Source of the DNA: the human T2T-CHM13v2.0 reference genome, Homo sapiens
Strand: one strand, 5' to 3'
Length of the DNA: 64,000 nucleotides
Assembly (NCBI RefSeq): GCF_009914755.1
Contig: NC_060934.1
Made by a program: the position numbers and the translations under genes. Shown here piece by piece: positions 41,442 through 44,400 of this stretch (the first letter of the stretch is position 1; the number at the start of each line of letters is the position of its first letter). Under the pieces are notes generated by a model that searched no databases, was not told the DNA's origin, and saw nothing but the letters and a program-made list of their open reading frames with translations.

Positions 41442-44400
41442 TTTTTTTTTTATTATTATACTTTAAGTTTTAGGGTACATGTGCACATTGTGCAGGTTAG
41501 TTACATATGTATACATGTGCCATGCTGGTGCGCTGCACCCACTAACGTGTCATCTAGCATTAGGTATATCTCCCACTGCTATCCCTCCCCCCTCCCCCGA
41601 CCCCACCACAGTCCCCAGAGTGTGATATTCCCCTTCCTGTGTCCATGTGATCTCATTGTTCAATTCCCACCTATGAGTGAGAATATGCGGTGTTTGGTTT
41701 TTTGTTCTTGAGATAGTTTACTGAGAATGATAGTTTCCAATTTCATCCATGTCCCTACAAAGGACATGAACTCATCATTTTTTATGGCTGCATAGTATTC
41801 CATGGTGTATATGTGCCACATTTTCTTAATCCAGTCTATCATTGTTGGACATTTGGGTTGGTTCCAAGTCTTTGCGATTGTGAATAATGCCACAATAAAC
41901 ATACGTGTGCATGTGTCTTTATAGCAGCATGATTTATAGTCATTTGGGTATATACCCAGTAATGGGATGGCTGGGTCAAATGGTATTTCTAGTTCTAGAT
42001 CCCTGAGGAATCGCCACACTGACTTCCACAATGGTTGAACTAGTTGACAGTCCCACCAACAGTGTAAAAGTGTTCCTATTTCTCCACATCCTCTCCAGCA
42101 CCTGTTGTTTCCTGACTTTTTAATGATTGCCATTCTAACTGGTGTGAGATGATATCTCATAGTGGTTTTGATTTGCATTTCTCTGATGGCCAGTGATGAT
42201 GAGCATTTTTTCATGTGTTTTTTGGCTGCATAAATGTCTTCTTTTGAGAAGTGTCTGTTCATGTCCTTCGCCCACTTTTTGATGGGGTTGTTTGTTTTTT
42301 TCTTGTAAATTTGTTTGAGTTCATTGTAGATTCTGGATATTAGCCCTTTGTCAGATGAGTAGGTTGCGAAAATTTTCTCCCATTTTGTAGGTTGCCTGTT
42401 CACTCTGATGGTAGTTTCTTTTGCTGTGCAGAAGCTCTTTAGTTTTATTAGATCCCATTTGTCAATTTTGGCTTTTGTTGCCATTGCTTTTGGTGTTTTG
42501 GACATGAAGTCCTTGCCCACGCCTATGTCCTGAATGGTAATGCCTAGGTTTTCTTCTAGGGTTTTTATGGTTTTAGGTCTAACGTTTAAATCTTTAATCC
42601 ATCTTGAATTAATTTTTGTATAAGGTGTAAGGAAGGGATCCAGTTTCAGCTTTCTACATATGGCTAGCCAGTTTTCCCAGCACCATTTATTAAATAGGGA
42701 ATCCTTTCCCCATTGCTTGTTTTTCTCAGGTTTGTCTAAGATCAGATAGTTGTAGATATGCGGCATTATTTCTGAGGGCTCTGTTCTGTTCCATTGATTT
42801 ATATCTCTGTTTTGGTACCGGTACCATGCTGTTTTGGTTACTGTAGCCTTGTAGTATAGTTTGAAGTCAGGTAGTGTGATGCCTCCAGCTTTGTTCTTTT
42901 GGCTTAGGATTGACTTGGCGATGCGGGCTCTTTTTTGGTTCCATATGACCTTTAAAGTAGTTTTTTCCAATTCTGTGAAGAAAGTCATTGGTAGCTTGAT
43001 GGGGATGGCATTGAATCTGTAAATTACCTTGGGCAGTATGGCCATTTTCACGATATTGATTCTTCCTACCCATGAGCATGGAATGTTCTTCCATTTGTTT
43101 GTGTCCTCTTTTATCTCCTTGAGCAGTGGTTTGTAGTTCTCCTTGAAGAGGTCCTTCACATCCCTTGTAAGTTGGATTCCTAGGTATTTTATTCTCTTTG
43201 AAGCAATTGTGAATGGGAGTTCACTCATGATTTGGCTCTCTGTTTGTCTGTTGTTGGTGTATAAGAATGCTTGTGATTTTTGTACATTGATTTTGTATCC
43301 TGAGACTTTGCTGAAGTTGCTTATCAGCTTAAGGAGATTTTGGGCTGAGACGATGGGGTTTTCTAGATAAACAATCATGTCGTCTGCAAACAGGGACAAT
43401 TTGACTTCCTCTTTTCCTAATTGAATACCCTTTATTTCCTTCTCCTGCCTGATTGCCCTGGCCAGAACTTCCAACACTATGTTCAATAGGAGCGGTGAGA
43501 GAGGACATCCCTGTCTTGTGCCAGTTTTCAAAGGGAATGCTTCCCGTTTTTGCCCATTCAGTATGATATTGGCTGTGGGTTTGTCATAGATAGCTCTTAT
43601 TATTTTGAAATGCGTCCCATCAATACCTAATTTATTGAGAGTTTTTAGCATGAAGGGTTGTTGAATTTTGTCAAAGGTTTTTTCTGCATCTATTGAGATA
43701 ATCATGTGGTTTTTGTCTTTGGCTCTGTTTATATGCTGGATTACATTTATTGATTTGCGTATATTGAACCAGACTTGCATCCCAGGGATGAAGCCCACTT
43801 GATCATGGTGGATAAGCTTTTTGGTGTGCTGCTGGATTCGGTTTGCCAGTATTTTATTGAGGATTTTTGCATCAATATTCATCAAGGATATTGGTCTAAA
43901 ATTCTCTTTTTTGGTTGTGTCTCTGCCCGGCTTTGGTATCAGAATGATGCTGGCCTCATAAAATGAGTTAGGGAGGATTCCCTCTTTTTCTATTGATTGG
44001 AATAGTTTCAGAAGGAATGGTACCAGTTCCTCCTTATACCTCTGGTAGAACTCGGCTGTGAATCCATCTGGTCCTGGACTCTTTTTGGTTGGTAAACTAT
44101 TGATTATTGCCACAATTTCAGAGCCTGTTATTGGTCTATTCAGAGATTCAACTTCTTCCTGGTTTAGTCTTGGGAGAGTGTATGTGTCGAGGAATGTATC
44201 CATTTCTTCTAGATTTTCTAGTTTATTTGCGTAGAGGTGTTGGTAGTATTCTCTGATGGTAGTTTGTATTTCTGTGGGATTGGTGGTGATATCCCCTTTA
44301 TCATTTTTTATTGTGTCTATTTGATTCTTCTCTCTTTTTTTCTTTATTAGTCTTGCTAGCGGTCTATCAATTTTGTTGATCCTTTCAAAAAACCAGCTCC

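What the first reader, a model, noticed from the sequence alone, without database searches (positions are those of the whole stretch)
43475..43620. Young L1-e and L1-b share a tract with three rare amino-acid changes
Seen: both translate [10 protein letters not shown]…QKREAF…PLLLNIV, whereas the usual residues are TY, KLE and LLFN. The matching tract in L1-b is ~11865-12005. There L1-b also carries young-type bases (AGGAGCGGTG, GCCTGATTG, TTTTGAAAT) although its 3'UTR is the older GAG type. L1-e separately shares YYQH, TTNPT and CGCTTGATGC with L1-c. Inference: exchange continued after this young element inserted, possibly from young to old in this tract.
Basis: partly seen in the sequence, partly recalled or inferred. 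Interest (0 to 1): 0.7.

Follow-up and report, generated by a model that had tools for sequence, protein, structure and literature searches.

The report
Neighbouring LINE-1 copies swap sequence
Two LINE-1 retrotransposon copies 32 kb apart beside the chromosome 10 centromere share a short stretch with three rare changes, two of which occur together at no other close match in the genome, likely because repair copied it from the young copy into the old one; this is a known kind of event, but neighbouring copies here share rare changes unusually often.

Summary
L1-e (pre-Ta, 41442-~45585) and the older L1-b differ at about 4% of sites, but at only 1 of 256 bases in e 43378-43633 / b 11766-12021. 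Both carry ORF2 Y626H, L648R and F668L. The 80-mer holding two of these changes matches exactly only these two places, among 1,175 genome copies within two mismatches. This is most likely non-allelic gene conversion after L1-e inserted. The identity peak alone is weak (permutation p 0.0125, 35 pairs tested). The picture is wider than one tract: 9 of 22 rare non-CpG changes in L1-e recur in local old copies, against 28 of 242 for distant young copies. One change (K1148Q) is in 4 of 8 local copies, and its carriers elsewhere cluster far beyond chance (18 adjacent pairs within 100 kb, 0.8 expected). Conversion between L1 copies is known; this clustered spread I did not find in print. Ape orthologues and raw reads were not available.

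The parts
41442..45585 (-). L1-e: 5'-truncated pre-Ta L1 (ACG at 41546-41548); ORF2 frame open from 45487 to 41660. 5' boundary about 45585 is inferred.
   Evidence: 98.7-98.9% identical to 29 best genome matches; boundary
43378..43633 (-). Shared tract in L1-e (likely donor); core 43484-43612 holds the three rare changes and 43493 C; 43505 is the one mismatch
9818..12347 (-). L1-b: older GAG-type 5'-truncated L1, 95 of 2,492 bases off the young majority; old state at 18 of 24 young/old sites
11766..12021 (-). Shared tract in L1-b (likely acceptor); rare bases at 11872, 11933, 12000, young CpG base at 11881
21665..27094 (-). L1-c: older L1 sharing single rare bases with L1-e at 21945, 22280, 24474, 25201 (and CpG site 24513)
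54186..56161 (+). L1-g: older inverted/truncated L1 carrying the K1148Q base at 55545
42046..42046 (-). ORF2 K1148Q change in L1-e, shared with L1-c, L1-g and L1-j (4 of 8 covered local copies; 212 of 11,938 genome copies)
41331..41441 (-). 3' transduction carried by L1-e, matching C12:95395654-95395785 except for microsatellite length
40261..41324 (-). Older host element L1-d, inverted 5' part, into which L1-e inserted
45586..48034 (+). Rest of host L1-d: 45586-45758 inferred to be d (minus strand), 45755-48034 its plus-strand 3' part

Best explanation
L1-e and L1-b share a 129-256 base tract that was likely copied from the young L1-e into the older L1-b by non-allelic gene conversion after L1-e inserted. 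Shown: the tract, its three rare changes, and that two of them occur together at no other close match in this genome. Inferred steps: (1) L1-e inserted from a source at chr12:95.4 Mb and then gained the changes in place; (2) a break or nick in L1-b's reverse-transcriptase region was repaired on L1-e, 31.6 kb away in the same orientation, overwriting b's own substitutions; (3) 43505 in e arose later or escaped the repair. The same process, in tracts short enough to move single bases, likely explains part of the excess sharing among L1-e, -c, -d, -g and -j.
For: Double carriers 2 of 1,175, 0.009 expected, and they are neighbours. No b-only substitution in 256 bases, 7.0 expected from b's rate of 56 in 2,037 outside. 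b is old-type on both sides (43370, 43679, 43723). Direction: 43493 C is in 21 of 29 young copies, 0 of 12 distant older and 0 of 4 other local older copies, and b has it; L039, b's best whole-length match with the same flanking states, has T there and G at 43609; b keeps 3 of 3 CpGs in the tract and 5 of 20 outside (Fisher 0.03). Rare non-CpG changes shared with local old copies: e 9 of 22, j 6 of 17, distant young controls 28 of 242 (Fisher 0.001, 0.014). Conversion between L1PA3 copies has been reported (PMC5829575, passages).
Against: The identity peak alone is not significant across 35 pairs. Direction rests on one diagnostic site; mutation counts fit both directions (4 seen vs 2.0 expected if e is donor, 3 vs 7.0 if b is donor). 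The tract has an internal mismatch. Without the b tract and K1148Q, e's excess falls to 5 of 18 (Fisher 0.06). The 12 older controls were picked by likeness to b and are few. No ape orthologue, second haplotype or read was seen.
Confidence: 0.66

Rival explanations
1. Conversion ran old to young, or both ways: the three rare bases are L1-b's own substitutions, copied into L1-e, with 43493 C moved back or regained.
For: b mutates more densely, and three rare bases in 129 bp suits an old copy; 43451 and 43609 are not young-specific; H626 is also in L1-j, so its origin is open; e takes single bases that match older neighbours elsewhere.
Against: Needs C at 43493 in b (0 of 16 other older copies), intact CpGs and only 3 private changes where 7.0 are expected (P 0.08).
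Confidence: 0.15
2. The template was an L1-e transcript or cDNA rather than the DNA copy (RNA-templated repair near the site of transcription).
For: L1-e has an open ORF2; for Alu, young transcribed copies were suggested as preferred donors (PMC8230782, passages).
Against: L1-e lacks its 5' promoter; about 1,170 other copies, many full-length, would supply more RNA, yet the donor is a neighbour.
Confidence: 0.07
3. Assembly or polishing artefact: bases of one copy were written into the other.
For: 93% repeat region; no reads or second assembly could be checked.
Against: Mis-mapped reads have no reason to come from the neighbour rather than from about 1,170 equally close copies; the tract keeps one mismatch; clusters of one change on other chromosomes among copies 1.8-5.6% apart would need the same error many times.
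Confidence: 0.06
4. Recurrent mutation: a high regional rate or site hotspots gave the same bases independently.
For: e and j hold 22 and 17 rare non-CpG changes against 242 in 29 controls (about 8 each; controls were selected for likeness to e); hypermutability of abandoned alpha satellite layers has been proposed (PMC2729386, passages); K1148Q is 1.8% genome-wide, above the 0.2-1% of the other changes; D403N is a CpG transition.
Against: Cannot give three rare changes together plus loss of b's own substitutions; local type-specific rates predict 1.8 hits for e, 12 seen (controls 59 seen, 20 predicted). It may explain some single-base sharing.
Confidence: 0.03
5. Shared source lineage or template switching at insertion: b and e descend in this tract from one rare source element.
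For: Recombinant L1s exist (35 of 2,267 full-length loci removed as recombinant, PMC13192797, passages).
Against: No third close copy carries the pair; b is GAG type and much older; e's transduction points to chr12; a source would scatter daughters across the genome, not 32 kb apart.
Confidence: 0.03

Closest known systems
Non-allelic gene conversion between neighbouring Alu elements (Aleshin & Zhi 2010, not held; seen only as summarised in PMC8230782 and PMC6598467, passages)
   Same: Neighbouring copies share non-diagnostic mutations; partial tracts give mosaic elements; young-to-old was the commoner direction (40 vs 12 cases in PMC8230782).
   Different: Here L1 ORF2, not Alu; partners lie 20-75 kb apart and K1148Q clusters span up to 0.5 Mb, against about 10 kb reported for Alu.
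Conversion between L1PA3 copies seen in long reads (Frith & Khan, PMC5829575, passages); L1 break repair by conversion in mouse cells (Tremblay 2000) and Burton 1991, titles only in reference lists
   Same: One L1 tract replaced by a similar tract from another L1, locally.
   Different: Here between a pre-Ta L1HS and an older copy inside monomeric alpha satellite, with several partners; population state unknown.
Recombinant full-length L1s in the human pangenome (PMC13192797, passages)
   Same: Mosaic L1 sequences with breakpoints.
   Different: That screen covers full-length elements and subfamily donor groups, not truncated copies, private bases or physical neighbours; 'centromer' does not occur in its main text.
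L1 chimera formed at insertion by annealing to a resident L1 (Gilbert 2005, title only; mechanism recalled)
   Same: Fits L1-e's 5' junction with host L1-d.
   Different: Does not explain the internal tract in L1-b.

Membership tests
Non-allelic gene conversion tract | Local run of near identity between paralogues, with ordinary divergence on both sides | tested here: met
   1 of 256 against 107 of 2,510; permutation p 0.0125, weak alone
Non-allelic gene conversion tract | Shared non-diagnostic changes absent from other paralogues | tested here: met
   2 of 1,175 for H626+R648; L668 in 0 of 46 other copies examined
Non-allelic gene conversion tract | Flanks not exchanged (no crossover or duplication) | tested here: met
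   b is old-type at 43370, 43679, 43723 and e young-type; each keeps its own ends
Non-allelic gene conversion tract | One-way transfer with known donor | tested here: inconclusive
   One diagnostic site and CpG retention favour e to b
Non-allelic gene conversion tract | Unconverted state in an outgroup orthologue or another haplotype | not testable with these tools
   The genome tool holds no relatives for this assembly (header)
Non-allelic gene conversion tract | Supported by raw reads | not testable with these tools
   No read data offered
L1HS pre-Ta (L1-e) | ACG triplet in the 3' UTR | tested here: met
   definition from 10.1101/179705, passages
L1HS pre-Ta (L1-e) | Absent from the ape orthologous site | not testable with these tools
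   No ape genome held
GC-biased conversion | Excess of A/T to G/C among transferred bases | tested here: inconclusive
   e's nine shared changes: 5 towards G/C, 3 away, 1 neutral (read); too few
Segmental duplication (chr4 K1148Q cluster) | Copies nearly identical along their length and of one subfamily | tested here: not met
   8 of 8 fetched carriers are 1.8-5.6% apart over 500 bp, in both orientations, with mixed diagnostic states

The most novel reading that the evidence does not exclude
L1 copies form local conversion neighbourhoods of tens to hundreds of kilobases in which short, repeated and biased conversions carry a favoured base across subfamilies: ORF2 K1148Q has spread independently through clusters on several chromosomes, and pericentromeric L1s in monomeric alpha satellite exchange so often that up to 40% of a young copy's rare changes are shared with neighbours. 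Divergence-based L1 ages and local mutation rates would then be distorted.
Probability: 0.4. Interest if true: 0.68.

Novelty: new variant of a known kind. Interest (0 to 1): 0.45.

Why it matters
The tract itself is one more case of conversion between repeats, though an unusually clean one that dates exchange to after a pre-Ta insertion, in a region usually described as having stopped homogenising (PMC2729386, passages). What would matter is the range and frequency: partners 20-75 kb apart, several partners per copy, and one coding change clustered over hundreds of kilobases on several chromosomes. That would mean L1 copies do not age independently, that lineage trees and insertion ages built on private changes are biased, and that neighbours can write amino-acid changes into an open ORF2. 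It is directly testable with complete human and ape assemblies.

Tried and rejected
Sliding identity as proof: weak on its own. 43451 G and 43609 A as direction markers: rejected. D403N as evidence: CpG transition, set aside. A shared source lineage: no third close carrier. Segmental duplication for the chr4 cluster: rejected. Looking for L1-e's source to compare its tract: the transduced sequence maps to chr12, but none of 5 stretches fetched beside it holds L1. General clustering of every rare change: not seen; carriers of the YYQH base (7) and the CGCTTGATGC base (20) are scattered apart from the e/c pair. GC bias: inconclusive. One search's motif is not the window's sequence and its counts are not used. 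Full panels of older copies could not be cut, so older controls are 12 stretches of 681 bp. Papers: 9 searches returned lists plus one on subfamily names; none describes this locus or clustered spread of an L1 change, but most subscription papers are not searched, and Aleshin & Zhi 2010, Tremblay 2000, Gilbert 2005 and one further id were not held. 10.1101/2020.01.10.893024 and PMC5237266 (passages) gave nothing usable. No supplements were read; the allele tables of PMC13192797 could bear on L1-j.

Full report
Setting. The window is monomeric alpha satellite (171-base arrays) interrupted by L1 copies, an SVA-like repeat and an Alu. L1-e lies at 41442 to about 45585 on the minus strand, has an open ORF2 frame and the ACG triplet that defines pre-Ta (10.1101/179705, passages). 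Its 29 best genome matches are 98.7-98.9% identical. L1-b (9818-12347, minus) is GAG type, differs from the young majority at 95 of 2,492 bases, and has the old state at 18 of 24 young/old sites. Four of its six young states lie outside the tract, so b belongs to an intermediate stage and young-looking bases in it need care.

The observation. e and b differ at 107 of 2,510 aligned bases, but at 1 of 256 in e 43378-43633 = b 11766-12021. Both translate to the same 62 residues, with Y626H, L648R and F668L against the common type. The 80-mer holding H626 and R648 has 2 exact matches in the genome, e and b; 7 more at one mismatch, each with only one change; 1,175 within two mismatches, of which the 91 two-mismatch rows shown are all the common type. 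Independence predicts 0.009 double carriers. This search cannot see diverged copies that carry both changes plus several other differences. L668 is in none of 29 young, 12 distant older and 5 other local copies. The identity peak alone is weak: p 0.0125 by permutation, with a-d, d-g and b-a as low or lower among 35 pairs. The rare bases, not the peak, carry the case.

Direction. L039, b's best whole-length match, shares b's flanking states but has T at 43493 and G at 43609. b keeps 3 of 3 CpGs in the tract and 5 of 20 outside (Fisher 0.03). b has no base of its own in the tract where 7.0 are expected. Counts of rare changes fit either donor: 4 seen against 2.0 expected for e, 3 against 7.0 for b. 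Young-to-old is therefore likely but not shown; a reciprocal or patchy event is not excluded.

Wider sharing. A full-length ACA-type element, L1-j, lies at about C10:39577345-39583164, opposite in orientation, 43 kb from e's tract; it shares H626 with e and b, and K1148Q with e, c and g. Rare non-CpG changes that recur in a local old copy: e 9 of 22, j 6 of 17, 29 distant young controls 28 of 242 (Fisher 0.001 and 0.014; 45586-45758 was left out as probable host sequence; one search gives 9 of 25, 5 of 17 and 23 of 252 with it included and old-type reversions counted apart). Without the b tract e has 6 of 19 (0.024); without K1148Q as well, 5 of 18 (0.06). The controls were chosen for likeness to e. 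For the e/c claims: the YYQH base is in 7 of 2,120 copies and the CGCTTGATGC base in 20 of 1,940, with e and c the only close pair each time; TTNPT is a CpG transition, and c has a base of its own between it and YYQH, so no long e/c tract exists.

K1148Q. The 29-mer with this base has 212 exact matches among 11,938 within one mismatch, but 4 of 8 covered local copies carry it. Among the first 100 of 212 listed (chr1 to chr8:85.4 Mb), 18 adjacent pairs lie within 100 kb against 0.8 under uniform placement (maximum 5 in 3,000 draws); a control of 83 common-type copies on chr1 gave 6 against 2.7. Eight carriers at chr4:96.87-97.42 Mb are 1.8-5.6% apart, in both orientations and of mixed diagnostic states, so they are neither a duplication nor one subfamily. 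I did not count non-carriers there. The other two changes counted show no such clusters, so this site is special: either a biased conversion target or a regional hotspot.

Mechanism. Shown: tract, rarity, retained flanks, excess local sharing, clustering of one change. Inferred: homology-directed repair of a break in b on e, 31.6 kb away in direct orientation, after e had gained its changes; one later or unrepaired base at 43505; further short conversions among neighbours. Rivals are reverse or reciprocal transfer, an RNA template, assembly error, recurrent mutation and shared source, with weights in the table.

Comparison with what is known. Conversion among neighbouring Alus within about 10 kb, mosaic elements and a young-to-old excess are described (PMC8230782, PMC6598467, passages; the primary Alu paper was not held). 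Conversion between L1PA3 copies was seen in long reads (PMC5829575, passages), and an intrachromosomal case is proposed in PMC1920257 (passages). A pangenome screen removed 35 recombinant full-length L1s of 2,267 (PMC13192797, passages). Old alpha satellite layers are described as no longer homogenising and as passing through hypermutability (PMC2729386, passages). My searches found no account of this locus or of a clustered L1 change; the library lacks most subscription papers.

Verdict. The tract is real in this assembly and most likely a conversion tract, a known kind of event. The multi-partner sharing over 20-75 kb and the clustered K1148Q change go beyond what I found in print and justify a genome-wide test. 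Interest 0.45.

Noticed in passing
window 41331-41441; G000:C12:95395654-95395785 (L059): L1-e carries a 3' transduction identical to this chr12 stretch except for microsatellite length; no L1 lies beside it in this assembly, so the source element is likely absent from this haplotype.
   Followed up: partly
window 41312-41324 and 45450-45758: L1-e sits in older L1-d at the exactly matching L1 position; 45465-45585 is young-type (1 difference in 121) and 45586-45756 more diverged (6 in 171), so the 5' end likely joined the host by homology, giving a seamless chimera.
   Followed up: partly
G000:C10:~39577345-39583164 (L034/L035): Full-length ACA-type L1 (L1-j) with 17 rare non-CpG changes, 6 shared with local old copies, including an old-type base at e-position 42152.
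   Followed up: partly
G000:C4:96.87-97.42 Mb (L051-L058); also C3:83.7-88.6, C4:60.9-63.0, C5:50.5-50.6, C7:32.8-32.9 Mb: Clusters of L1 copies carrying ORF2 K1148Q; L051 and L055, 167 kb apart, share four further non-majority bases.
   Followed up: partly
window 1-64000 against L033-L038: Alpha satellite monomers in the window all run one way (230 of 230 hits), while flanking loci on both sides run mostly the other way, suggesting an inverted block a little larger than the window.
   Followed up: no
window 3897-6200, 54186-56161, 58552-59982, 40261-48034: Four of the older L1 inserts (a, g, h, d) have inverted 5' parts.
   Followed up: no
window 30131-32003: SVA-like insert with a 37-base VNTR and a long GAAA run.
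   Followed up: no
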